DNA of 7,647 bases, taken from IMG/VR virus record IMGVR_UViG_2690316243_000010; one strand, 5' to 3'. The notes under the pieces were generated by a model. The model was not told the origin of the DNA and did not search any database. It was given only the letters and a program-made list of their open reading frames with translations. The stretch is from a virus. Taxonomy: Duplodnaviria; Heunggongvirae; Uroviricota; Caudoviricetes. Made by a program: the position numbers and the translations under genes. Every line of letters begins with the position of its first letter. Positions within the stretch are counted from its first letter, which is position 1. Positions 48 to 7,647 of this stretch are shown here, piece by piece.

Positions 48-587
48 TTATTCAGATTTTGGATTATGCTTTCTCTTCACGAAGTTCCGATTGGCGAGAA
101 CACTCATCAGANNNNNNNNNNNNNNNNNNNNNNNNNNNNNNNNNNNNNNNNNNNNNNNNNNNNNNNNNNNNNNNNNNNNNNNNNNNNNNNNNNNNNNNNN
201 NNNNNNNNNNNNNNNNNNNNNNNNNNNNNNNNNNNNNNNNNNNNNNNNNNNNNNNNNNNNNNNNNNNNNNNNNNNNNNNNNNNNNNNNNNNNNNNNNNNN
301 NNNNNNNNNGGATCAACCACAGATGGTTTCTTCAGCTTTGCCCTCGAGAGTTTTTTGCGGGCGTTTTGCCAGTCCTTACGAGCCTGTTCAGACGGGAATA
401 ACCCGTAGCCAGAGTTGTATACATCCCCACTGGCAACCAGCTCTCTGGCGAGAACGCTTATTAAATATCTTGTCGCCCCGGTTTTAGCTTCCAGTTGTCG
501 TAACGTCTCGCGCCCACTCTGGCGTACGAGTTCAACAACCTGCCCCTTAATTTTTTCCCGCTCTTCCTGTGTAAATACTTTTGCCAT
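48..587 (-). CDS. Hypothetical prophage protein, about 179 aa, with 66 codons masked by the N run; likely start ATG at 587..585
   Basis: Open frame continuous across the N gap (gap length 198 is a multiple of 3). ATG at 587..585 lies 15 nt downstream of the stop of the upstream gene on the same strand, preceded by a G-rich stretch. The visible N-terminal 97 aa and C-terminal 20 aa are not recognisable to me. The TTG at 602 used in the ORF track is less likely. Confidence 0.45.
   Translation of the reverse strand: MAKVFTQEEREKIKGQVVELVRQSGRETLRQLEAKTGATRYLISVLARELVASGDVYNSGYGLFPSEQARKDWQNARKKLSRAKLKKPSVVDXXXXXXXXXXXXXXXXXXXXXXXXXXXXXXXXXXXXXXXXXXXXXXXXXXXXXXXXXXXXXXXXXXXLMSVLANRNFVKRKHNPKSE
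112..309. other. Run of 198 undetermined bases (assembly gap or masked sequence)
   Basis: Directly seen: n characters from 112 to 309. Length is divisible by 3, so the flanking minus-strand reading frame is preserved. Confidence 1.
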
Positions 588-602
588 AAGCGCCCCCGGC
601 AA

Positions 603-1328
603 TCACTTTTCCGACACAATACGACCGGAGGAATCGACAATCTGTCGAACAATATCCCGGTGCTTGTTCAGCTCCCGCAACGCGGCGCAGACACGCTCCC
701 ACTTCTGGACATGACTTTTCGCCCGACGCAGTTCGCGGTTTGCCATATGCAGCGATGGTAAAATCAGGTCATCCGCTTGCGTTTCGGTGAACGATGGCAA
801 CGACTGCACAATGTCCGCCACAGTTTCTGTTTTAATTTCTTCCTGTGTTGCAGCTTCCTGTACCGGTAACGCAACACCTGCTGGCTGAGGAAAGACTTTA
901 CCATCCGTTTCCGCTATGGATGCGGCTTTCGGCTCTGCCGGTAAATCAGCGCCCGGTATGCAGTACCGAAATTTACCGCCCTGATTCACGCGAATCAGAC
1001 GCCCTTTGCTGATTGCCATGGCCAGCGATGAATTCGCCCGGCGGGAGGTAATCCCGAACATCAGTGCCAGCTCATCCGCCGTTTGTGGGCCATGTTGTTC
1101 AATCGCCTCAGTCAGCATTTGCGCTGTCACTTTCGGTACCGGTGACACTGGTTCACTTTCACCAGCCTGAATCAGCCACCACATCGAACCCTTGTTATCC
1201 GCTTCACCACGGCGCTTCAGTTTCCACAGTTCGTTGACCGCATCTTCACGGCTGATTCCAAGGCGGGACGCCACCACATGTGAAGAGGCTCTTTTCAGTG
1301 CTTTCAGTGCGTCAAATACAGTTTCCAT
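603..1328 (-). CDS. Prophage protein of unknown function, DUF1627-like, about 241 aa
   Basis: Long minus-strand ORF. ATG at 1328..1326 is preceded by GGAGG about 8 nt upstream (reverse complement of 1337-1341). It lies 21 nt downstream of the DnaC-like gene stop. The N-terminal region ([14 protein letters not shown]...[25 protein letters not shown]) looks like a winged-helix domain, and this class of protein commonly follows the replication genes in lambdoid prophages. Family name is from memory. Confidence 0.7.
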
Positions 1329-1349
1329 TAAAACATCCTCCAACAAAAA

Positions 1350-2096
1350 TTACTTCACAACTCCCGGAAAGCTGACATTTGAACGCCAGCTATCCCAGTT
1401 AAACGTCACCCACCGACAACCGTTCATGGTCATGCGGTCCATAATCCTCTCACCAAGAAGCGTGCTCATTGCGGCATGATTCAGGTTTGTTAACATCCCG
1501 ACACTGCACAGTGATGCTGTCCGGCGATCAATTATCTGGTGCAATACCACCTGCTCGTTTTTCGTCTCCCGCTGAATGCCTATTTCATCCAGGACCAGCA
1601 AATCAACCCCGCAAAGCTCCTGTAAAAATTTTTCACCGGATTTGCCGTTGTCGTAGCTGTCATGCAACACGCTCATGACATCAGACTCGGTGACGATAAT
1701 CACGCTGCGCCCCTTCGCCATCAGCCGGTTACCCATCGCCGCTGCAAGGTGATTTTTCCCGGTGCCGGTTTTACCGCTGAACACAAAATTCGTGCACCCG
1801 GTCATCAGTTCGTCAGCTATGGATTTGGCCTGGCTCAGCGCGTATTTTTGCCCGTCGTTCTGCACCTGATAATTCGCAAACGAGCATTTGCTGTGCAGAG
1901 GCTGGATGCCCGAACGATTCAGGATTTTTTCCACCCGCAACTGGCGATTCTGGCGGTTAATCTCCTCGCTGCGTTTTCGTCCTTCAGCAAGTTGCCATTC
2001 CCGCCACTCCTCCACCGTCCGGTACGGTGGAACCGCCCCCTGTGGTGCAAGTCTGTGAATACGTTCAAGAACCCCGGCTGCCGCAATGTTTTTCAT
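1350..2096 (-). CDS. DnaC-like replicative helicase loader (AAA+ ATPase; YdaV-like; functional analogue of lambda P)
   Basis: 248 aa. Walker A region FSGKTGTGKNHLAAA and Walker B LLVLDEIG, plus a C-terminal WVTFNWDSWRSNV tail, all closely resemble host DnaC as I recall it. Start ATG at 2096..2094 lies 6 nt after the upstream gene stop, with AGGGGG inside the upstream coding sequence, so translational coupling is likely. Confidence 0.9.
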   Translation of the reverse strand: MKNIAAAGVLERIHRLAPQGAVPPYRTVEEWREWQLAEGRKRSEEINRQNRQLRVEKILNRSGIQPLHSKCSFANYQVQNDGQKYALSQAKSIADELMTGCTNFVFSGKTGTGKNHLAAAMGNRLMAKGRSVIIVTESDVMSVLHDSYDNGKSGEKFLQELCGVDLLVLDEIGIQRETKNEQVVLHQIIDRRTASLCSVGMLTNLNHAAMSTLLGERIMDRMTMNGCRWVTFNWDSWRSNVSFPGVVK

Positions 2097-2102
2097 GCCA
2101 CA

Positions 2103-3167
2103 TCACCCCCTGAATCCCGGCGGAATTTCGGTATCCGGTTCAGAAATATGATTCACACAACGCTGGTTGTTCGTGCCGCTTACCGGGAGCAACCAGGGGT
2201 TTTCAAAATTCCGGTCCGGCCCAAAAAACGTCGTCGCTCGCTGAACAAATTCCGTTCCCGCTTTCCCGGTCGCCGCCAGGTATCTCGCGTAACGCCTCAC
2301 ACCATCCAGCATGGTCTCTGGTGGCACCCCCTCGCGCAATCTGGCCTTCCAGGCACTGAATGCGGATTTCTTCGGGTTTGCCCCGGCACGCAACGGGTAT
2401 TCCCGCCAGACCTGTTCGAACACATCCGGATAATCCACTCGTCCCACAGGCTGCCCGGTGTTTTCCGGGGCTACCCGATCGGCTTCCCGCTGAATGGCGG
2501 AATCGGCTTCAGGCTGCTGCAGTTGGAGTGATTGCTCCGGCCTTGCGGTCATCACCTGCTGCACAGCGCCCGAATCGGCTTTCAGCGCATACGCTGAATC
2601 GGCTTCCGGTGTCGAGCCTGCTGGCTGACCAGGATTGACGGTCTGAACATCCCCTGCCTGGTTCGTGGCGTTTTTTACGCCATGGACCATAGTGTTTTGA
2701 TCTTCTTTATCTGTATCTTTATCTGTATCTGTCGTGACTCGTCGTGACATGTGCGTGACATTTCGTGACGCGCCGTGACAATCGCCATTTTGTTCCCGCT
2801 TTCTTTCCCTCTCTCGCTGCGCCCTCTTGCGCTCTGCAGGAGATTTTGCGGTTTGCGAAATATTGCCGTTGTCCTCTTTAAGCACCTGGCGTTTTTCCCA
2901 TCCAGTGATTAAATCACCATCAAGTACCCGCCCCTGCATCGTCTGCAAAATTGAATCAATTACCTCTTCTGTCACGTCGAGCGCACTTGCCAAATCTTCT
3001 GTCGTGACATCAATGTGACCTCGCGTGACATTTCGTGACGCGCTCACCAGGAGGTGGATATACACTGCCATCACTGTTGCAATTGGCTGCCCTGACACCC
3101 TGGCAATTGTTCGCCACTTAGGGTCATTTGGCATGTCATGCCATAATCTGAGCCAGGCGTTAGCCAT
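2103..3167 (-). CDS. Replication initiator, lambda O functional analogue (YdaU/DUF1376-like N-terminal domain with DnaT-like C-terminal domain), about 354 aa
   Basis: Minus-strand ORF immediately upstream of the DnaC-like gene. ATG at 3167..3165 is preceded by GAGGTGA. The ORF-track start is a GTG at 3173 that overlaps this Shine-Dalgarno, so the ATG is preferred. The C-terminal region (YPDVFEQVWREYPLRAGANPKKSAFSAWKARL...) looks like the DnaT/primosomal-type domain seen in phage initiators. The gene contains phased CGTGAC iterons (see repeat features), as lambda O contains ori-lambda. Confidence 0.85.
   Translation of the reverse strand: MANAWLRLWHDMPNDPKWRTIARVSGQPIATVMAVYIHLLVSASRNVTRGHIDVTTEDLASALDVTEEVIDSILQTMQGRVLDGDLITGWEKRQVLKEDNGNISQTAKSPAERKRAQRERERKREQNGDCHGASRNVTHMSRRVTTDTDKDTDKEDQNTMVHGVKNATNQAGDVQTVNPGQPAGSTPEADSAYALKADSGAVQQVMTARPEQSLQLQQPEADSAIQREADRVAPENTGQPVGRVDYPDVFEQVWREYPLRAGANPKKSAFSAWKARLREGVPPETMLDGVRRYARYLAATGKAGTEFVQRATTFFGPDRNFENPWLLPVSGTNNQRCVNHISEPDTEIPPGFRG
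2705..2728. repeat. 12-bp tandem direct repeat, two copies of CTTTATCTGTAT, AT-rich
   Basis: Directly seen: CTTTATCTGTAT at 2705-2716 and 2717-2728, immediately left of the first CGTGAC cluster. Encodes the TDKDTDKD low-complexity linker of the initiator. Confidence 0.8.
2733..2779. repeat. Iteron cluster A: five CGTGAC copies at 10-11 bp spacing (candidate prophage origin of replication)
   Basis: CGTGAC at 2733, 2743, 2754, 2764 and 2774. Helical-phase periodicity. Located inside the initiator gene. Confidence 0.75.
2971..3043. repeat. Iteron cluster B: CGTGAC-family repeats at 10-11 bp spacing, including an exact 20-mer shared with cluster A
   Basis: GTCACG (inverted) at 2971; CGTGAC at 3003, 3024 and 3034; TGTGAC at 3014. 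The 20-mer CGTGACATTTCGTGACGCGC at 3024-3043 is identical to 2754-2773. Confidence 0.75.
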
Positions 3168-3238
3168 ACTCACCTCTTCTGATACCGAATCTTTTTACTC
3201 ACGAGTTGCCGGGAGCGATTCGATATGGCTATTGTCAG

Positions 3239-3664
3239 TCAATGTACTGCCACAGCATTTCCTGCCGGGCCACCACGGTTCATCTGATTGAAACCGGCGA
3301 TTGCCACTGCGACAAAATCATCAGCGTCTCTCACCAGTCGTTCATGCGTCTCCACCAGTTCCCGAAAATAAGCTGAACTGTGGCTGCGCATTCGAGCCAC
3401 CAGCGGAGGTGGCATTGCCCTTTCGATCGCAGGTAACAACGCCTGAATTTTTTCAACAGCGTCAGGGGTGTCTTTATCCAGCCAACGGAAAATCTTTTGG
3501 GTGTTGAGATAAAGTGTGTTGTGCTTGCTGTCGTTATGCAGAACCGGAAACGTCATTCCCAGTTCGAAATAAACCCTGGTTATTTCAGCTGCCGGAACTT
3601 TTTCACCGTCCGGATGCGCCCAGGCTTTCATCGCCATGCGGATGTGTTCATGCTTGATTTTCAT
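3239..3664 (-). CDS. ydaT: YdaT-family protein (reported functional equivalent of CII in a CP-933P-type cryptic prophage), 141 aa
   Basis: N-terminus MKIKHEHI matches my recollection of YdaT proteins. Start ATG at 3664..3662 overlaps the stop of the upstream Cro-like gene (ATGA overlap), so it is translationally coupled. Position between the cro-like gene and the replication genes mirrors lambda cII. Confidence 0.8.
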   Translation of the reverse strand: MKIKHEHIRMAMKAWAHPDGEKVPAAEITRVYFELGMTFPVLHNDSKHNTLYLNTQKIFRWLDKDTPDAVEKIQALLPAIERAMPPPLVARMRSHSSAYFRELVETHERLVRDADDFVAVAIAGFNQMNRGGPAGNAVAVH

Positions 3665-3924
3665 GAATCAACCCCCGCCGATGGTTGTGTGTTAGCCTGA
3701 AACTCAGCAGGCAAGCCGTCAGTTGGGTTGGGGTAGGTTTTACTGTCAATCTCATGTGGGGTCACCACCCATCCCGTTGCTTCACACCAACGTAATATTT
3801 TTTCTCCTGTAAGTTTTGCACGCCCCGTTATAACGTGGCTGACCATCCCTTGGGATGCGCCAACAATCTCAGCAAATGAACTCTGGGTTATATGAAAATG
3901 ATGCAAATATTCTCCAAGATTCAT
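3661..3924 (-). CDS. ydaS: Cro-like HTH DNA-binding protein (YdaS family), about 87 aa
   Basis: Small minus-strand ORF diverging from the repressor gene. ATG at 3924..3922 is preferred over the TTG at 3951 used in the ORF track, with AGGGCGG upstream. Helix-turn-helix-like segment SSFAEIVGASQGMVSHVITGRAKL. First gene of an operon followed by ydaT and the replication genes. Confidence 0.8.
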   Translation of the reverse strand: MNLGEYLHHFHITQSSFAEIVGASQGMVSHVITGRAKLTGEKILRWCEATGWVVTPHEIDSKTYPNPTDGLPAEFQANTQPSAGVDS

Positions 3925-3960
3925 AATCCGCCCTATGTGATGTGTTACCAATGCATAATT

Positions 3961-4000
3961 AATAGCACTGTTATTTTTAAAAGTAAATAGTGATGCTATT
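3961..4000. promoter_or_regulatory. OR-like operator pair in the divergent promoter region: two 15-bp sites of the AATAGC-N3-GCTATT family
   Basis: AATAGCACTGTTATT at 3961-3975 and AATAGTGATGCTATT at 3986-4000, centres 25 bp apart, in the 111-bp gap between divergent ydaS-like and repressor starts. Same motif family as the 5098-5138 pair. Confidence 0.7.
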
Positions 4001-4035
4001 TCAAAGTGATTAGCAATCTTATTAGAATTGGATGT

Positions 4036-4536
4036 ATGAAAAGAAAATCATTGTCAGACACCGACCTCAACGCCGCCAGAAGACTGAAAGAAATCTGGAT
4101 GGCAAAGAAATCTCAGTTGGGATTGACTCAGGAACGTGCGGCGGAAATTATGGGGTTTTCAACACAAGGGGCGGTAAGTCACTACCTAAATGGTCAAACC
4201 CCACTAAACCTTGAGGCTGTTCTAAAGTTTGCTGGCTTACTGAAAGTTCCCCCTGAGTCAATCAGGCCAGACATGGTAGATTTGCTGCAAATTGCAAGGA
4301 TGTATTGTCGAGAACCACAGCAAGATAACATAGTCGCATTACCAGCAGACACAGAACAAACAGAGGATGAACTACCGTTTGCCGTAGAGCCGATGGAACG
4401 AGATTTAATCCATACGTTCAGAGCTTTTCCGAAAGAAGATCAAGAACACATGCTTCAGGAGATGAAAGATAAAAAAGAATCAATGGATCGTACGGTTGCG
4501 CGGTGGTTAGCTGCACAAAAAGGCCGTCGCGCCTAA
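4036..4536 (+). CDS. paaR2: CI-like prophage repressor lacking an S24 peptidase domain (PaaR2/RacR-type HTH regulator), about 166 aa
   Basis: ATG at 4036 (MKRKSL...) rather than the ORF-track start at 4006. The N-terminal HTH (LGLTQERAAEIMGFSTQGAVSHYLNGQTPLNLEAVLKFAGLLKVPPESI) is lambda CI/XRE-like. The roughly 100-aa C-terminal region is acidic with no Ala-Gly cleavage site or GDSM-type serine motif that I can see. Diverges from the cro-like gene and is followed by the TA pair. Symbol assigned by resemblance from memory. Confidence 0.75.
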   Translation: MKRKSLSDTDLNAARRLKEIWMAKKSQLGLTQERAAEIMGFSTQGAVSHYLNGQTPLNLEAVLKFAGLLKVPPESIRPDMVDLLQIARMYCREPQQDNIVALPADTEQTEDELPFAVEPMERDLIHTFRAFPKEDQEHMLQEMKDKKESMDRTVARWLAAQKGRRA

Positions 4537-4555
4537 ATCAGAGGAGATATGTAAA

Positions 4556-4750
4556 ATGAGTACAGTCCTTTCCCCAATGGTTTCAGAATTTGAGACAGTT
4601 GAGCAAGAAAATAGTTACAACGAATGGCTGCGGGCCAAAGTAGCAGCAAGCCTCGCGGATCCCCGCCCGGCGATTCCGCATGATGAGGTAATGGCGGAAA
4701 TGGAACAAATTATTGCCCAAATTGCTGCTGCAACTCACAGAGGTGAATAA
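4556..4750 (+). CDS. paaA2: Antitoxin of the ParE-family toxin (PaaA2-like), 64 aa
   Basis: Small acidic protein. GAGGAG Shine-Dalgarno at 4541-4546. Stop TAA overlaps the toxin start (TAATG at 4748-4752). Sits immediately upstream of a RelE/ParE-fold toxin gene. Confidence 0.8.
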   Translation: MSTVLSPMVSEFETVEQENSYNEWLRAKVAASLADPRPAIPHDEVMAEMEQIIAQIAAATHRGE

Positions 4751-5040
4751 TGTTACCCGTTTTATGGCTACCATCTGCTCGTGATGATTTGCGCCAGATC
4801 GTAGCCTACATAGCTAAAGAAAATCCCGCGGCAGCACGCAGAATGAAAATTCGAATTGAAACATCCGTTTTGCCGCTCACAGAGCATCCTTACCTGTATC
4901 CTCCAAGCGAGCGAGTTCTTGGTCTTCGTGAAATTGTAACTCATCCTAACTACATCATCCTTTACCGAGTAACAGCATCAAGCATAGAAGTAGTAAATAT
5001 TGTGCATTCTCGAAGACAGTATCCAGGCAAAAACAGTTAA
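4750..5040 (+). CDS. parE2: ParE/RelE-superfamily toxin (ParE2-like), 96 aa
   Basis: Size, 1-nt overlap with the upstream antitoxin, and sequence character (basic C-terminal region ...IVHSRRQYPGK) are typical of ParE/RelE toxins. Followed by an intrinsic terminator. Confidence 0.85.
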   Translation: MLPVLWLPSARDDLRQIVAYIAKENPAAARRMKIRIETSVLPLTEHPYLYPPSERVLGLREIVTHPNYIILYRVTASSIEVVNIVHSRRQYPGKNS

Positions 5041-5056
5041 TTATTCCCGCCGACAG

Positions 5057-5078
5057 AACCACCTTAGGGTGGTTTTTT
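5057..5078 (+). terminator. Rho-independent terminator of the repressor-TA operon
   Basis: Stem AACCACC (5057-5063), loop TTAG, stem GGTGGTT (5068-5074), followed by a T run to 5078. Begins 17 nt after the parE2-like stop. Confidence 0.8.
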
Positions 5079-5097
5079 CTTGCCCCAACAAAAAACA

Positions 5098-5138
5098 ATA
5101 GCGATGCTATTTACATCAAAAAAAATAATGATGCTATT
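5098..5138. promoter_or_regulatory. OL-like operator pair: AATAGCGATGCTATT (perfect palindromic arms) and AATAATGATGCTATT
   Basis: Sites at 5098-5112 and 5124-5138, centres 26 bp apart, immediately downstream of the terminator and upstream of the rightward small-gene operon. Same motif as the 3961-4000 pair about 1.1 kb away. Confidence 0.7.
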
Positions 5139-5319
5139 GTTTCAGGCGTCAACCCACCCCGCCCCACAGAATGCAGGGCAATACTTCGAGTTACCAGACA
5201 GTGGTCAGGGGTTAAGTAGCCAGCCCGAGGCGTAAGAACATGACGGCAGGGTTCAATCTTTAACTATGCAGCAGGTTTTTTGTTCCGCCACCCCGGCGTT
5301 AAGGGGAAATGAGGTCAGC

Positions 5320-5472
5320 ATGGATACTATCGATCTTGGCAACAACGAATCTCTGGTGTGCGGCGTGTTCCCTAACCAGGATGGAACGTTTACCGCCATG
5401 ACGTATACCAAAAGCAAAACGTTTAAAACCGAATCTGGCGCGCGTTGCTGGTTAGCCAGAAACACTGACTGA
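5320..5472 (+). CDS. Small prophage protein, YdaF-like (DUF1391-type), 50 aa
   Basis: ATG at 5320 with GAGGT Shine-Dalgarno 4 nt upstream; the longer ORF-track start at 5266 lacks a Shine-Dalgarno. Stop overlaps the next start (TGATG). Position and size match the small genes left of the repressor in Rac-type prophages. Family assignment from memory, moderate. Confidence 0.6.
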   Translation: MDTIDLGNNESLVCGVFPNQDGTFTAMTYTKSKTFKTESGARCWLARNTD

Positions 5473-5849
5473 TGAGGCTGACGATGGAATTTAAAGATTT
5501 ACCGTCTGATGTACAGAAAACAGCAGCTCATACATTGCATTCTGTGCTGCGAGAAATCGGGAAAGATATTGCAAGCGAGCCAGCAAAAGATCTGGCCCGG
5601 AAAATCAAGACCGCTTTCGTTGAGCTTTATAATGTTGGCACTGACTCTGAAACTGTCGAGACCAAGACCGTAAGTTCACCAATATTCTCACTTGAGCCAA
5701 GCGTATTATCAGGTGAAATATGCACCGAGATTTCCAGCGAACTGCTTCCGGTAATACGAGAAGCAATTCGCCGTCGCGGTTTGGATGGAAGTTATGATCA
5801 TGACGTTCTGCAAGTTCTCAGGACAATGGTGACTTCACTGGGGATTTGA
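5472..5849 (+). CDS. Hypothetical early-left protein, 121-125 aa (start at 5472 by coupling, or at 5484 with a GAGG Shine-Dalgarno)
   Basis: ORF coupled to the upstream small gene. Acidic and not Arg-rich, so not an obvious N-type antiterminator. No family recognised. Confidence 0.55.
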   Translation: MRLTMEFKDLPSDVQKTAAHTLHSVLREIGKDIASEPAKDLARKIKTAFVELYNVGTDSETVETKTVSSPIFSLEPSVLSGEICTEISSELLPVIREAIRRRGLDGSYDHDVLQVLRTMVTSLGI

Positions 5850-6018
5850 TCCCTGCGTCCTCTAAGCTTTTGATATAGCGGTCCTCCAAGAAGCGGTAAA
5901 TTTTGTCGAAATCATCTTTTCCCTCTGGTTTATTCAGAGGATTACAGGACCCGTAAGTAGCGGCATACATTTCAACCGTTTTATCAAAAATATAAGAGAC
6001 AAATTCTTCTTTAGTCAT
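5818..6018 (-). CDS. Small hypothetical protein, 66 aa, convergent with and overlapping the 3' end of the upstream + strand gene
   Basis: ATG at 6018..6016 with AAGGA Shine-Dalgarno about 8 nt upstream. Coding region visibly more AT-rich than its neighbours. Hydrophilic, no transmembrane segment. A possible -35/-10 pair (TTTAAC, 17 nt, TATCCT on the minus strand) lies about 25 nt upstream. The 5' extension in the ORF track is probably not translated. Confidence 0.5.
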   Translation of the reverse strand: MTKEEFVSYIFDKTVEMYAATYGSCNPLNKPEGKDDFDKIYRFLEDRYIKSLEDAGIKSPVKSPLS

Positions 6019-6218
6019 ATAGATTTCCTTCTTGGTTATTCGGGATAAGAAGGATACCACCTCGCCTGACGTGGTTAAAAGCAGGCACACAACGCGAAAT
6101 GACGCGGCGGTAAGTATGGCGGAGTTATTCCTTCCCCGTTGAGGACACCGGGTTGTCAGGTTGACCATACGCTTAAGTGACAACCACGCCACAACACTCC
6201 ATGTTGATTGGTACCTTT

Positions 6219-6259
6219 GGCGGCATCAGTTTCATTGCTGGCTGATGTCCGCCCTTTTT
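6219..6259 (+). terminator. Rho-independent terminator, + strand only
   Basis: 11-bp stem GGCGGCATCAG (6219-6229) pairs with CTGATG(T)CCGCC (6242-6253) with one bulged T and a 12-nt loop, followed by CTTTTT. The opposite strand has no U run after the hairpin. Confidence 0.7.
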
Positions 6260-6427: not shown

Positions 6428-6746
6428 CGGTGATGAAAGGAAAGAGAAAATGTTGAATGTAGCTATTGAAAACCAGAACGGGTGGAATTATAGTGCACCT
6501 GCACCTTATAAAACGGGTGCCGGGCGTGGAAACCCGAACGTTACTCGAGCGCATAGCCGCGCTGAAGCGGTTTTTTTATGCGTAATGCACAGCTCCATTC
6601 AAATTATGGTGGGATGTGCAGGGCAGTCGCAAGACTGGCCGGGTTCTCGAGTGACCGGTATTTCCACCCCTGTACGTCTCACCACCCTTATGGTCGTGGA
6701 AAACCTCGGTGGTGAGTTAATTAACTTATCACTCGAGGATGCCATC

Positions 6747-7304
6747 ATGGCTACTATCCCTGCCCTTTCTCACCCTGACGTAACCATCGAAAATGGTCGC
6801 GCTGTCACTACGTCTATTGCGATCGCAGAGTTCTTTGGCAAGCGTCACGACAATGTGTTACGTGCCATCGCAAATACTGAATGCTCACCTGAATTTAACG
6901 CCCTCAATTTTGAGGACGTCACCTACACTGACGCCAAAGGCGAAAAACGCCCGATGTACCAAATCACCAAAAACGGCTTCGTTTTCCTGGTGATGGGATT
7001 CACTGGCAAAAAAGCCGCTGCATTTAAAGAAGCCTACATTGCTGAGTTCGATCGCATGGAGGCCGAACTGCGCCAGAATAACACCCCACCCACTGACAAA
7101 ATAATTCCAGGCGATGGCCGCACCCTGGTTGTTCACTTCGACGAACGCGGCAACATCAGATTCACCGAAACCGTTCCTGATGGCGCACGGGTCTGTACCA
7201 TGGAGACTTTCCGGTTTTATCTGGAAGAACAGGGATGGACTCTTGTTAACCGGGGCGCAATTAAAAATATGACTGTAGAGCAATTACTCAAAATTCATTG
7301 TTGA
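6747..7304 (+). CDS. Rha-family phage regulatory protein (Phage_pRha domain), about 185 aa
   Basis: ATG at 6747 with GAGGA Shine-Dalgarno 7 nt upstream. Sequence block AIAEFFGKRHDNVLRAIAN...MYQITKNGFVFLVMGFTGKKAAAFKEAYIAEFDRME is characteristic of Rha/ORF6N-type phage regulators as I recall them. The in-frame upstream extension to 6450 has a possible Shine-Dalgarno but non-protein-like composition, so the start is uncertain. Confidence 0.8.
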   Translation: MATIPALSHPDVTIENGRAVTTSIAIAEFFGKRHDNVLRAIANTECSPEFNALNFEDVTYTDAKGEKRPMYQITKNGFVFLVMGFTGKKAAAFKEAYIAEFDRMEAELRQNNTPPTDKIIPGDGRTLVVHFDERGNIRFTETVPDGARVCTMETFRFYLEEQGWTLVNRGAIKNMTVEQLLKIHC

Positions 7305-7314
7305 GGACGCGATA

Positions 7315-7503
7315 ATGGAAACGTTATTACCAAACGTTAATACGACTGAAGGTTGTTTTGAAATTGGTGTCACTATCAGTAACACGGTATTTACTGAAGA
7401 TGCCATTAACAAGAGAAAACACGAACGGGAGTCATTAAATAAAATATGCATTGTTTCAATGCTGGCTCGTTTGCGTCTGATGCAAAAAGGATGCTGGCGA
7501 TGA
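7315..7503 (+). CDS. Small hypothetical protein, 62 aa
   Basis: ATG at 7315 with GAGG 8 nt upstream, right after the Rha stop. Its stop overlaps the next start (ATGA at 7500-7503). The coupling supports it being real; no family recognised. Confidence 0.45.
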   Translation: METLLPNVNTTEGCFEIGVTISNTVFTEDAINKRKHERESLNKICIVSMLARLRLMQKGCWR

Positions 7504-7647
7504 ATACAGCATTTGCACTCGTTCTGACCGTTATTCTTAATACGGGCGAACCAGCTGAACTGGTTACCGGAGTATACAACTCCATGAAAGAATGCGTGGC
7601 TGCTGCAGCTGAACAGAAAATTCCCGGTAACTGTTATCCGGTTGATA
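7500..7647 (+). CDS. Hypothetical protein, 5' partial (runs off the window), with a hydrophobic N-terminal segment
   Basis: Starts MNTAFALVLTVILNTGEPAELV..., a possible signal or membrane anchor. Open to the window end. Translationally coupled to the upstream small ORF. Confidence 0.5.
   Translation, partial: MNTAFALVLTVILNTGEPAELVTGVYNSMKECVAAAAEQKIPGNCYPVD

What the first reader, a model, noticed from the sequence alone, without database searches (positions are those of the whole stretch)
3661..5138. Lambda-style bistable immunity switch with a ParE-type toxin-antitoxin pair in the rexAB position
A CI-like repressor gene (+) diverges from a Cro-like plus YdaT (CII-analogue) operon (-). The repressor is followed, in one operon with 1-nt stop/start overlaps, by a ParE-family antitoxin-toxin pair, then a terminator and a second operator cluster. 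This is the lambda pRM-cI-rexAB / OL architecture with a TA module as cargo. It matches what I recall of the paaR2-paaA2-parE2 three-component module and its ydaS-ydaT neighbours in an E. coli O157 cryptic prophage, so it is probably a described system and not a new one. It remains the biologically richest part of the window, because toxin expression is wired to the prophage decision circuit.
Basis: partly seen in the sequence, partly recalled or inferred. Interest (0 to 1): 0.5.

Follow-up and report, generated by a model that had tools for sequence, protein, structure and literature searches.

The report
Prophage immunity switch carrying PaaA-ParE toxin-antitoxin
This is the on/off control region of a lambda-like prophage of E. 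coli/Shigella with a ParE toxin-antitoxin pair riding behind the repressor gene: a kind of system already described in E. coli O157:H7, seen here as an uncharacterised version with a different DNA-recognition specificity.

Summary
A repressor gene (4036-4536, +) diverges from a cro-like/ydaT operon (3239-3924, -). The repressor is followed by a PaaA antitoxin (4556-4750), a ParE toxin (4750-5040), a terminator and a second operator cluster (5097-5138).

One detail is wrong. Only the antitoxin/toxin junction overlaps by 1 nt. The repressor and antitoxin genes are 19 nt apart, with a GAGGAG ribosome-binding site between them.

The locus belongs to the described paaR-paaA-parE / ydaS-ydaT immunity-region family of O157:H7 prophages CP-933P and CP-933M, but it is neither allele:
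- The toxin-antitoxin pair is closest to the second O157 locus, taken here to be ParE1/PaaA1 (86% and 78%). It is 67% and 75% identical to ParE2/PaaA2.
- The repressor is a chimera: a lambda-CI-type N-terminal DNA-binding domain, a disordered linker, and the PaaR/DicA-type C-terminal helical tail. It has no LexA-like cleavage domain.
- It has its own operators (AATAG-N5-CTATT), three at OR and two at OL. Their half-sites are invariant in five related loci.
- The YdaT (CII-analogue) site TTGATT-N6-AATCAA is present exactly at the cro/ydaT junction.
- The repressor mRNA is predicted to be leaderless.

All genes are under strong purifying selection. Bistability and toxicity are inferred by homology, not tested. 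I rate it a new member of a known kind, of modest interest.

The parts
3239..3664 (-). ydaT: CII-analogue transcription activator ('YdaT toxin' is a misnomer)
   Evidence: PF06254 E 5e-9. PDB 3c4r E 4e-79 and CP-933P YdaT 8bt1 E 3e-70. PHROG 163 'CII-like transcriptional activator' E 3e-40. dN/dS 0.14-0.21.
3654..3671 (.). YdaT high-affinity operator (OM-type), TTGATTTTCATGAATCAA, spanning the cro stop and the ydaT start; marks the PRE-equivalent region
   Evidence: Exact match to TTGATT-N6-AATCAA and the only exact one in the window. This motif and its position were footprinted in CP-933P (PMC9986795). Conserved in L002, L003 and L004; one mismatch in L001.
3661..3924 (-). cro-like HTH regulator, 87 aa, first gene of the rightward (-) operon
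   Evidence: HTH_3 at 20.8 bits, below the cut-off of 23. PHROG 35 'transcriptional repressor' E 8e-17. 36% identity over 67 aa (BLASTP, E 7e-14) to the L003 YdaS and 29% to CP-933P YdaS. Identical protein annotated in L001.
3959..3987 (-). PR-like promoter: -35 TTTACT (3987-3982), 17-nt spacer, -10 TATTAA (3964-3959)
   Evidence: Read from the sequence and conserved in the 6-locus alignment. Consensus-level prediction only.
3961..3975 (.). OR1-like operator AATAGCACTGTTATT, overlapping the PR -10 and spacer
3986..4000 (.). OR2-like operator AATAGTGATGCTATT, between the PR -35 and the PRM -35
   Evidence: Perfect half-sites. The central 5 nt differ in each of 6 related loci while the half-sites are invariant.
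4009..4023 (.). OR3-like weaker operator ATTAGCAATCTTATT, inside the PRM spacer
   Evidence: 2 mismatches to the motif. Position is conserved in relatives, 23 bp from OR2.
4000..4028 (+). PRM-like promoter: TTCAAA, 17 nt, TAGAAT. The -10 ends 8 nt before the ATG at 4036, which predicts a leaderless repressor mRNA
   Evidence: Promoter scan hit. Both hexamers and the spacing to the ATG are invariant in 6 loci. Leaderless paaR2 and cI are documented in PMC8630535.
4036..4536 (+). Repressor, 166 aa: lambda-CI-type N-terminal domain (aa ~1-91), disordered linker (~93-117), PaaR/DicA-type C-terminal helices (119-164); no S24 peptidase domain
   Evidence: PDB lambda CI N-terminal domain E 3e-9. AlphaFold model with N-terminal pLDDT 85-93; the ten best Foldseek hits are all lambda CI N-terminal domain, TM 0.84-0.93 for the stand-alone N-terminal-domain chains. 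C-terminal 52% identity to PaaR2 (E 5e-15) and 56% to PaaR1 (E 6e-23). DicA C-terminus hit NF007257. dN/dS 0.08.
4541..4546 (+). Shine-Dalgarno GAGGAG for paaA, in the 19-nt repressor-paaA spacer
   Evidence: Sequence. Conserved in relatives.
4556..4750 (+). paaA antitoxin, 64 aa, with no DNA-binding domain
   Evidence: PF21217 E 3e-23 and NF050103 E 3e-27. PDB PaaA2 3zbe E 1e-23. 78% identical to PaaA1 and 75% to PaaA2. dN/dS 0.05-0.11.
4750..5040 (+). parE toxin, 96 aa; its start overlaps the paaA stop by 1 nt
   Evidence: PF05016 E 2e-17. PDB ParE2 5cw7 E 7e-37, gap-free over 93 aa. 86% identical to ParE1 and 67% to ParE2. dN/dS 0.05-0.07.
5055..5081 (+). Intrinsic terminator of the repressor-paaA-parE operon (CCACC-TTAG-GGTGG core followed by TTTTTTCTT)
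   Evidence: -15.1 kcal/mol, z -3.26. Stem conserved and loop variable in relatives.
5097..5111 (.). OL1-like operator AATAGCGATGCTATT
   Evidence: Perfect half-sites with a variable centre across loci.
5124..5138 (.). OL2-like operator AATAATGATGCTATT
   Evidence: 1 mismatch.
5110..5140 (+). PL-like promoter: TTTACA ... TATTGT, with the same hexamer pattern and operator placement as PR. The spacer is 19 nt here and 17 nt in five relatives
   Evidence: Alignment. Spacer-length polymorphism. Prediction only.

Best explanation
The region is the immunity (lysis/lysogeny) switch of a Rac/Qin-type lambdoid prophage of the E. coli/Shigella lineage. It is a heteroimmune member of the paaR-paaA-parE / ydaS-ydaT family.

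Proposed mechanism:
1. The 166-aa repressor binds the 15-bp palindromes AATAG-N5-CTATT at three OR sites and two OL sites through a lambda-CI-type N-terminal domain. It self-associates through the PaaR/DicA-type C-terminal helices.
2. Bound at OR1/OR2 and at OL, it shuts off PR (cro-ydaT and the replication genes) and PL (ydfA through dicB). From OR2, which abuts the PRM -35, it probably stimulates its own leaderless transcript. OR3 allows autorepression at high concentration.
3. The Cro-like protein made from PR competes for the same operators and gives the opposite stable state.
4. YdaT binds TTGATT-N6-AATCAA at the cro/ydaT junction. From a PRE-like promoter there it drives leftward transcription into the repressor operon.
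5. paaA-parE is co-transcribed behind the repressor, up to the terminator at about 5055-5081. PaaA has no DNA-binding domain, so expression of the toxin-antitoxin pair depends entirely on the phage switch.
6. The stable ParE toxin and labile PaaA antitoxin make the immunity region addictive, so cells that lose it are killed.
7. The repressor has no RecA-cleavable domain, so it is not directly inducible by the SOS response.

Shown here: gene identities, domain architecture, operator statistics and conservation, the YdaT site, the mosaic boundaries and purifying selection. Inferred by homology to CP-933P and lambda: promoter activity, the leaderless start, competition between the two regulators and bistability, activation from OR2, toxicity and addiction.
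For: Gene families.

Homology to the two O157 loci: one search gives ParE 86%/67%, PaaA 78%/75%, YdaT 81%/77% and repressor C-terminal domain 56%/52%.

Published mechanism for CP-933P:
- leaderless paaR2;
- OR and OL operator clusters;
- mutual repression by PaaR2 and YdaS, and bistability;
- YdaT activation of PRE;
- addiction through ParE2 and protease-labile PaaA2.

Operators: 4 sites with at most 1 mismatch, found only in the two intergenic regions, with 0 of 5000 shuffles reaching that count. Half-sites are invariant and centres variable in 6 loci. The operators sit on the PR, PRM and PL hexamers as in lambda.

YdaT site: exact match at the expected position.

Repressor N-terminal domain: lambda CI fold. 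In the alignment, the acidic residues at lambda's positive-control positions Glu34 and Asp38 are Glu33 and Glu37 here. The assignment of those two lambda positions as the positive-control patch comes from established knowledge of lambda CI.

No S24 domain: protein length and Pfam results.

Mosaic boundaries: only 3736-4408 (cro N-terminal part, OR, repressor N-terminal domain) lacks homology to the PaaR1 locus, and the OL operators differ as well. The L003 (PaaR1) and L004 (PaaR2) loci carry different repeats at the same positions.

Selection: dN/dS is 0.05-0.11 for parE, paaA and the repressor at saturating dS.

Cargo origin: PaaA-ParE exists as a stand-alone two-gene cassette in Bartonella, Acetobacteraceae, sphingomonads and others, which supports its status as inserted cargo.
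Against: - No experiment was done on this allele.
- Promoters are consensus-level matches. The scan found 3 against 3.8 expected by chance. PR and PL have weak -10 hexamers.
- The PL spacer is 19 nt in the window, which would weaken it.
- OL shows two sites, not three.
- The Cro-like protein does not reach any Pfam or NCBIfam cut-off and is only distantly related to YdaS.
- The PRE promoter itself could not be located, because its sequence is not held in the text.
- In near-identical genomes IS1 interrupts the locus just downstream. The prophage may therefore be cryptic and the 'decision' vestigial.
- In CP-933P no ParE2 activity was detected in either switch state, so 'toxin wired to the decision' may have no phenotypic consequence.
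Confidence: 0.85

Rival explanations
1. The toxin-antitoxin pair is primarily an anti-phage exclusion or abortive-infection module, a functional equivalent of rexAB. The lysogen would express it to kill infected cells, and prophage addiction would be secondary.
For: It occupies the rexAB position in the repressor operon and is expressed in the lysogenic state. Toxin-antitoxin systems are frequently defence systems (general knowledge).
Against: None of the repressor, PaaA or ParE matches any PADLOC defence model. The published phenotype of the homologues is plasmid stabilisation and post-segregational killing. No trigger is known.
Confidence: 0.1
2. It is a self-contained three-component toxin-antitoxin system. 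The upstream HTH protein would be merely the split-off DNA-binding half of the antitoxin, and the neighbouring cro/ydaT genes would be unrelated.
For: This was the original view of paaR-paaA-parE, summarised in PMC8630535. PaaA lacks a DNA-binding domain.
Against: The same operator motif recurs downstream of the operon in front of a PL-like promoter. The operators overlap the divergent PR-like promoter. The N-terminal domain is a lambda CI homologue. The C-terminal tail is shared with DicA, a prophage repressor whose family hit carries no toxin-antitoxin pair. Replication genes and dicB flank the region as in lambdoid phages. Stand-alone PaaA-ParE pairs elsewhere have no PaaR.
Confidence: 0.03
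3. It is a decayed remnant: the genes are present but the switch and the toxin no longer function.
For: Near-identical copies are interrupted by IS1 downstream. The PL spacer is non-optimal at 18-20 nt in this lineage. Only 1 of 50,697 phage records carries a close ParE homologue, and none carries this repressor type at 60% identity or more.
Against: All five ORFs are intact and full length against solved homologues. dN/dS is 0.05-0.2. Operators, PRM hexamers and the YdaT site are conserved. The exact repressor protein is listed in 6004 blocks of the collection.
Confidence: 0.07

Closest known systems
paaR2-paaA2-parE2 / ydaS-ydaT immunity region of cryptic prophage CP-933P, E. coli O157:H7 (PMC8630535, PMC9986795); locus L004 here
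   Same: Gene order and orientation. PaaA (75%), ParE (67%) and YdaT (77%). The repressor's C-terminal 44 residues (52%). The YdaT operator at the cro/ydaT junction. OR and OL operator clusters. A terminator after parE. A predicted leaderless repressor. No S24 domain. ydfC and dicB lie downstream at L004; the window instead has a DUF1391/ydfA gene and dicB.
   Different: The repressor N-terminal domain is lambda-CI-like, with no detectable similarity to the PaaR2 N-terminal domain (PDB 7nkv). The repressor is 166 aa rather than 123 aa. The Cro-like protein is only 29% identical to CP-933P YdaS. The operators are AATAG-N5-CTATT rather than GTTTAGTAA repeats. OL has two sites rather than three.
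paaR1-paaA1-parE1 locus of O157:H7 (CP-933M according to PMC8630535); locus L003 here. The assignment to CP-933M is inferred: L003 is the second O157 copy
   Same: The closest toxin-antitoxin pair (ParE 86%, PaaA 78%). Repressor C-terminal 64 residues 56% identical. DNA homology runs from inside the repressor C-terminal domain through parE into ydfA (window 4409-5463) and over ydaT.
   Different: PaaR1 has an unrelated Xre-type N-terminal domain. Its operators are AAAAACTGT/ACAGTTTTT-type repeats. Its Cro-like protein is 36% identical.
Bacteriophage lambda PRM-cI-rexA-rexB / OR / OL / cro-cII
   Same: Homologous repressor N-terminal domain (34-40% identity in the ten best Foldseek hits; TM 0.84-0.93 for the stand-alone N-terminal-domain chains). 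Three OR operators about 24 bp apart, placed on PR and PRM in the same way. OL cluster with a PL-like promoter. Leaderless repressor mRNA. Non-essential cargo genes co-transcribed after the repressor.
   Different: The C-terminal domain is a short helical tail rather than the S24 autoprotease and dimerisation domain. The cargo is a ParE toxin-antitoxin pair, not Rex. The CII analogue is YdaT (POU-like, inverted-repeat site). The Cro-like protein and operator sequence are unrelated to lambda's.
DicA/DicC immunity region of the E. coli K-12 Qin prophage
   Same: The same prophage family and downstream genes (ydfA/DUF1391, DicF-like RNA, dicB). The repressor C-terminal residues 106-162 match positions 74-130 of the DicA model.
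   Different: By my recollection of the K-12 map, Qin has no toxin-antitoxin pair between the repressor and ydfA; this was not checked here. The whole-protein DicA score is 32 bits against a cut-off of 101, so this repressor is not a DicA family member.
Classical ParD-ParE (RK2-type) type II toxin-antitoxin systems
   Same: ParE/RelE-fold toxin (PF05016). Antitoxin gene first, translationally coupled to the toxin.
   Different: The antitoxin is of the PaaA type with no DNA-binding domain. Transcription is controlled by separate phage regulators and not by the antitoxin-toxin complex alone.

Membership tests
ParE toxin (PF05016; ParE1/ParE2 subgroup) | Profile match above the curated cut-off and full-length alignment to solved ParE2 | tested here: met
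   64.1 bits against a cut-off of 23. 5cw7 E 7e-37, residues 1-93 gap-free.
ParE toxin (PF05016; ParE1/ParE2 subgroup) | Toxic when expressed without its antitoxin | not testable with these tools
   Only indirect support: an intact ORF and dN/dS of 0.05-0.07.
PaaA antitoxin (PF21217) | Profile match above the cut-off; small protein with no DNA-binding domain, encoded immediately upstream of parE | tested here: met
   81.9 bits against a cut-off of 27. NF050103 94.3 bits against a cut-off of 50. PaaA2 3zbe E 1e-23. 1-nt overlap with parE.
PaaR regulator (third component of paaR-paaA-parE) | HTH regulator encoded directly upstream on the same strand as paaA-parE, with no terminator between | tested here: met
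   19-nt gap containing only a Shine-Dalgarno sequence. No terminator was called in the gap.
PaaR regulator (third component of paaR-paaA-parE) | C-terminal (oligomerisation) region homologous to PaaR1/PaaR2 | tested here: met
   52% over 44 aa, E 5e-15 (PaaR2). 56% over 64 aa, E 6e-23 (PaaR1).
PaaR regulator (third component of paaR-paaA-parE) | N-terminal DNA-binding domain homologous to that of PaaR2 (PDB 7nkv, 8c3k) | tested here: not met
   No alignment outside the C-terminal region. The PDB search with the window protein finds lambda CI, not 7nkv. 7nkv is absent from the top 50 Foldseek hits.
Lambda CI repressor family | CI-type N-terminal HTH domain | tested here: met
   1lmb E 3e-9. 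The ten best Foldseek hits are all lambda CI N-terminal domain: TM 0.84-0.93 for the stand-alone N-terminal-domain chains, rmsd 1.1-2.5 A.
Lambda CI repressor family | C-terminal S24 (LexA-like) autocleavage and dimerisation domain | tested here: not met
   No Peptidase_S24 hit. The protein ends at residue 166 with two helices.
YdaT (CII functional analogue) | PF06254 match and homology to solved YdaT | tested here: met
   36.9 bits against a cut-off of 21. 8bt1 E 3e-70.
YdaT (CII functional analogue) | TTGATT-N6-AATCAA operator at the cro/ydaT junction | tested here: met
   Exact match at 3654-3671. The motif is from PMC9986795.
YdaS / Cro-type regulator | Profile membership (YdaS PF15943 or HTH_3 above the cut-off) | tested here: not met
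   Best hit is HTH_3 at 20.8 bits, below the cut-off of 23. No YdaS-family hit at E up to 1. Still 36% identical (E 7e-14) to the L003 YdaS, and in the Cro position.
Lambdoid bistable immunity switch | Divergent promoters sharing multiple operators bound by both regulators | tested here: inconclusive
   Operators and promoter-like hexamers are arranged as required and are conserved. Binding was not tested.
Lambdoid bistable immunity switch | Two heritable, mutually exclusive expression states | not testable with these tools
   Shown only for CP-933P.

The most novel reading that the evidence does not exclude
The conserved recombination block runs from the repressor's C-terminal tail through paaA-parE (window about 4409-5040 and beyond). 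It is shared by at least three immunity specificities whose DNA-binding domains, Cro proteins and operators are unrelated. The most novel reading is that this linkage is functional: the PaaA-ParE complex would act through the conserved repressor tail as a co-repressor or sensor. Toxin-antitoxin stoichiometry would then feed into the lysis/lysogeny switch, and addiction would force every immunity swap to keep that tail. The 244-aa tandem-HTH proteins would be intermediates of such swaps.
Probability: 0.12. Interest if true: 0.55.

Novelty: new member of a known kind. Interest (0 to 1): 0.3.

Why it matters
It shows that the published O157:H7 case is one of several heteroimmune versions of one design. 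In that design a ParE toxin-antitoxin pair has no regulator of its own and is controlled by a prophage's lysis/lysogeny switch. The toxin-antitoxin pair, the repressor tail and YdaT are kept while the DNA-recognition parts are exchanged.

This allele has a lambda-CI-type DNA-binding domain and clean palindromic operators. That makes it a convenient comparator for the less tractable PaaR2 system. It could be used to ask how non-cleavable repressors are switched and whether the toxin-antitoxin pair protects immunity regions against recombination. The locus is also very common in Shigella sonnei and E. coli genomes. It does not change current understanding.

Tried and rejected
- **Repressor scan of species-representative genomes.** No relatives were found.
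- **Promoter-like match inside the repressor gene (4123-4151).** Not conserved in relatives, so treated as chance.
- **Minus-strand promoter-like match at 5152-5125, antisense to parE.** Its -35 is not conserved in relatives, so treated as chance.
- **LexA box search.** Only 1-mismatch hits at chance frequency, so there is no evidence for SOS control.
- **PADLOC defence models.** No hit for the repressor, PaaA, ParE or YdaT. The Cro-like protein gave only two marginal hits (E 6e-4 and 4e-3).
- **Rfam.** Nothing credible inside 3661-5138. AS-pc02 at E 0.77 is chance.
- **Covariation in the conserved PL leader.** Too little sequence variation: 1 compensatory pair.
- **PRE promoter location.** The paper's promoter table and figures are not held as text.
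- **Literature search for the PaaR2 crystallisation paper.** Nothing useful.
- **Alternative GTG start at 4006 for the repressor (176 aa).** Rejected for three reasons. It lies inside the predicted PRM. RefSeq annotates the ATG equivalent. The lambda CI alignment starts at residue 2 of the ATG form.


Full report
**Observation**

The window is a Rac/Qin-type lambdoid prophage segment. On the minus strand, reading leftward from the switch, it carries:
- a DnaT-like/O-type replication initiator (2103-3173);
- a DnaC-like loader (1350-2096);
- a DUF1627 protein (603-1346).

On the plus strand, right of the switch, it carries:
- a DUF1391/ydfA gene;
- an unknown 125-aa ORF;
- small RNAs;
- a Rha-family gene;
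- dicB.

The finding's core lies between these two sets:
- ydaT (3239-3664, -) and a cro-like gene (3661-3924, -) form one operon with a 4-nt ATGA overlap.
- A 111-bp intergenic region follows (3925-4035).
- Then come the repressor (4036-4536, +), paaA (4556-4750, +) and parE (4750-5040, +).
- A hairpin with a T-run follows at 5055-5081 (-15.1 kcal/mol, z -3.3).
- A second pair of operators lies at 5097-5138.

Only paaA/parE overlap by 1 nt. The repressor and paaA genes are 19 nt apart, with a conserved GAGGAG between them.

**Identity of the proteins**

- ParE: PF05016 at 64.1 bits (cut-off 23). It aligns gap-free over 93 residues with solved ParE2 (5cw7, E 7e-37).
- PaaA: PF21217 at 81.9 bits (cut-off 27). 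It matches PaaA2 (3zbe) at E 1e-23.
- YdaT: E 3e-70 against CP-933P YdaT (8bt1).

I fetched the two O157:H7 loci.
- L004 starts its repressor with MQKKE, the N-terminus determined for PaaR2. It is therefore the paaR2 locus.
- L003 is the paralogous copy. I take it to be paaR1-paaA1-parE1 of CP-933M.

| Window protein | Identity to L003 (PaaR1 locus) | Identity to L004 (PaaR2 locus) |
|---|---|---|
| ParE | 86% | 67% |
| PaaA | 78% | 75% |
| YdaT | 81% | 77% |

The toxin-antitoxin pair is therefore ParE1-like, not ParE2-like.

**The repressor is a chimera**

- Its last 44-64 residues match PaaR2 (52%, E 5e-15) and PaaR1 (56%, E 6e-23). They also match the C-terminus of the DicA model.
- Its first ~90 residues match the lambda CI N-terminal domain by sequence (1lmb, E 3e-9).
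- They also match it by predicted fold. The N-terminal pLDDT is 85-93. The ten best Foldseek hits are all lambda CI N-terminal domain, with TM 0.84-0.93 for the stand-alone N-terminal-domain chains, rmsd 1.1-2.5 A and 34-40% identity.
- The solved PaaR2 N-terminal domain (7nkv, 8c3k) is not detectably related to it.
- Residues 93-117 are predicted to be disordered. Residues 119-164 form two helices.
- There is no S24 peptidase domain. Like PaaR2, this repressor should not be RecA-cleavable.
- In the alignment, lambda's positive-control residues Glu34 and Asp38 correspond to Glu33 and Glu37. This is compatible with activation of PRM from OR2. That step is an inference resting on established lambda knowledge.

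**The Cro-like protein**

The Cro-like protein is an HTH protein below all curated cut-offs. It is 36% identical to the L003 YdaS (E 7e-14) and 29% identical to CP-933P YdaS.

**Operators and promoters**

A 15-bp palindrome, AATAG-N5-CTATT, occurs with at most 1 mismatch at 3961, 3986, 5097 and 5124 and nowhere else in the window. In 5000 shuffles the mean count was 0.19 and none reached 4. A third, weaker OR site lies at 4009-4023. Spacing between OR sites is 25 and 23 bp.

I aligned six loci carrying this repressor type at 77-99% protein identity (window, L001, L002, L005-L007). The half-sites are invariant. The central five bases of OR2 and OL1 differ in almost every locus. This is the pattern expected of a dimer-binding site.

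The L003 and L004 loci carry different repeats at the same positions:
- L003: AAAAACTGT/ACAGTTTTT.
- L004: GTTTAGT, the published consensus.

These are therefore three immunity specificities.

Promoter-like hexamers sit on the operators as in lambda:
- PRM: TTCAAA (4000-4005), 17 nt, TAGAAT (4023-4028). Its -35 abuts OR2 and OR3 lies in its spacer. The ATG at 4036 is 8 nt after the -10, invariantly in all six loci. This predicts a leaderless mRNA, as shown for cI and paaR2.
- PR: TTTACT (3987-3982), 17 nt, TATTAA (3964-3959). OR1 lies over the -10 and spacer.
- PL: TTTACA (5110-5115) and TATTGT (5135-5140). OL1 lies just upstream of the -35 and OL2 lies over the -10. The design is the same as PR, echoing the CP-933P observation.

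All promoters are predictions.

**The YdaT site**

The footprinted high-affinity YdaT site TTGATT-N6-AATCAA is present exactly once, at 3654-3671. It spans the cro stop and the ydaT start. It is conserved in the related loci.

**Mosaic structure**

Against L003, DNA homology covers 3241-3735 (ydaT and the cro 3' end) and 4409-5463 (the repressor tail, paaA, parE and on into ydfA). It is absent from 3736-4408, which holds the cro HTH region, OR and the repressor N-terminal domain and linker.

The exchanged 'immunity cassette' is therefore about 670 bp, plus the OL operators. The toxin-antitoxin pair travels with the repressor tail.

**Selection**

| Gene | dN/dS |
|---|---|
| parE | 0.05-0.07 |
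| paaA | 0.05-0.11 |
| repressor | 0.08 |
| ydaT | 0.14-0.21 |

These values were obtained at high synonymous divergence. All components are being maintained.

**Distribution**

- The whole module (at least 80% coverage) is in 72 of 5426 complete E. coli genomes.
- Toxin-antitoxin-like DNA is in 842 of them.
- The exact repressor protein is listed in 6004 blocks of the assembly collection and is named from Shigella sonnei by NCBI.
- Genomes found through it are 99.9% identical to the window over 310-5981.
- Among 50,697 phage records, only phage Evi carries a close ParE homologue (E-value limit 1e-10), in a PaaR2-type locus. No phage record has this repressor above 60% identity; the best hits are lambda cI at 31%.
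- Outside the enterics, PaaA-ParE pairs with PaaA 45-80% identical to the window's occur as two-gene cassettes. No PaaR, YdaT or Cro is detected next to them. This supports the idea that the pair was inserted as cargo behind a prophage repressor.

**Mechanism**

The mechanism is given under the best explanation. It rests on direct sequence evidence for the parts and on the CP-933P experiments for the dynamics. Those experiments showed:
- competition of the repressor and the Cro analogue for shared operators, which gives two heritable states;
- YdaT activation of a PRE-like promoter;
- addiction through stable ParE2 and protease-labile PaaA2, with no toxin activation detected in either state.

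**Verdict**

This is an uncharacterised heteroimmune member of a described family. It is ordinary in kind. Its one instructive feature is the domain-swapped repressor, with a lambda CI head on a PaaR tail. Interest is 0.3.

Noticed in passing
window 6488-7304: A P1/P7-style antisense immunity element lies upstream of a Rha-family ORF (about 6747-7304; PF09669 E 2e-32). It consists of the c4 targets a1b1 (6488-6540, 24.8 bits, below cut-off), isrK (6501-7577 region: 6501-6577, 61.2 bits against a cut-off of 50) and C4 antisense RNA (6602-6689, 76.7 bits against a cut-off of 45). The Rha-family ORF also matches PHROG anti-repressor (Ant) families. It could be an antirepressor route for switching a repressor that lacks an autocleavage domain.
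   Followed up: partly
window 5118-5125 (inside the PL-like promoter 5110-5140): The poly-A tract in the PL spacer varies in length. The spacer is 19 nt in the window, 18-20 nt in genomes 99.9% identical to it (L045-L050), and 17 nt in five more distant relatives. This is either homopolymer assembly error or slipped-strand variation that detunes PL and changes the OL1-OL2 spacing (27 bp against 25 bp).
   Followed up: partly
window 5150-5320: The leader between the PL-like promoter and ydfA is about 90% conserved across all immunity types, including PaaR1, PaaR2 and phage Evi loci. It is more conserved than the neighbouring coding DNA. It has no Rfam match and too little variation to test a structure. 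It may be a nut/put-like or regulatory RNA element.
   Followed up: partly
proteins P0013, P0018, P0020, P0022: These 243-255-aa proteins from public assemblies join this repressor's CI-like N-terminal domain (65-75% identical) to a complete PaaR1-like protein (second HTH plus tail). They are tandem-HTH repressors and look like fusion intermediates of the domain swap.
   Followed up: no
loci L009-L044: PaaA-ParE pairs whose PaaA is 45-80% identical to the window's occur in Bartonella, Acetobacteraceae, Sphingomonadales, Rhodocyclaceae and others. They are stand-alone two-gene cassettes with no PaaR, YdaT or Cro detected next to them. How they are regulated without a DNA-binding antitoxin is unclear.
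   Followed up: partly
window 6206-6254 and 7315-7503: A DicF-like sRNA (38.8 bits, below the cut-off of 48) and dicB (PF05358 E 2e-36) lie downstream in the PL-side operon, as in the Qin prophage.
   Followed up: no
window 5973-5981: In several near-identical genomes (L045, L050, and probably L047 and L048) an IS1 copy is inserted here with a 9-bp duplication. The window is the uninterrupted form.
   Followed up: partly
window 4121-4132 / 4252-4263: A perfect 12-nt inverted repeat (GATTGACTCAGG / CCTGAGTCAATC), 119 nt apart, lies inside the repressor coding region. Its left arm is not conserved in relatives.
   Followed up: no
window about 107-316: A run of masked or unknown bases (translated as X in all frames) interrupts the leftmost ORFs.
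   Followed up: no
L002 3966-4333: In the O145:H28 relative no cro-like CDS is annotated between ydaT and the repressor, and the sequence contains a C8 run. This suggests a frameshifted cro in that copy.
   Followed up: no
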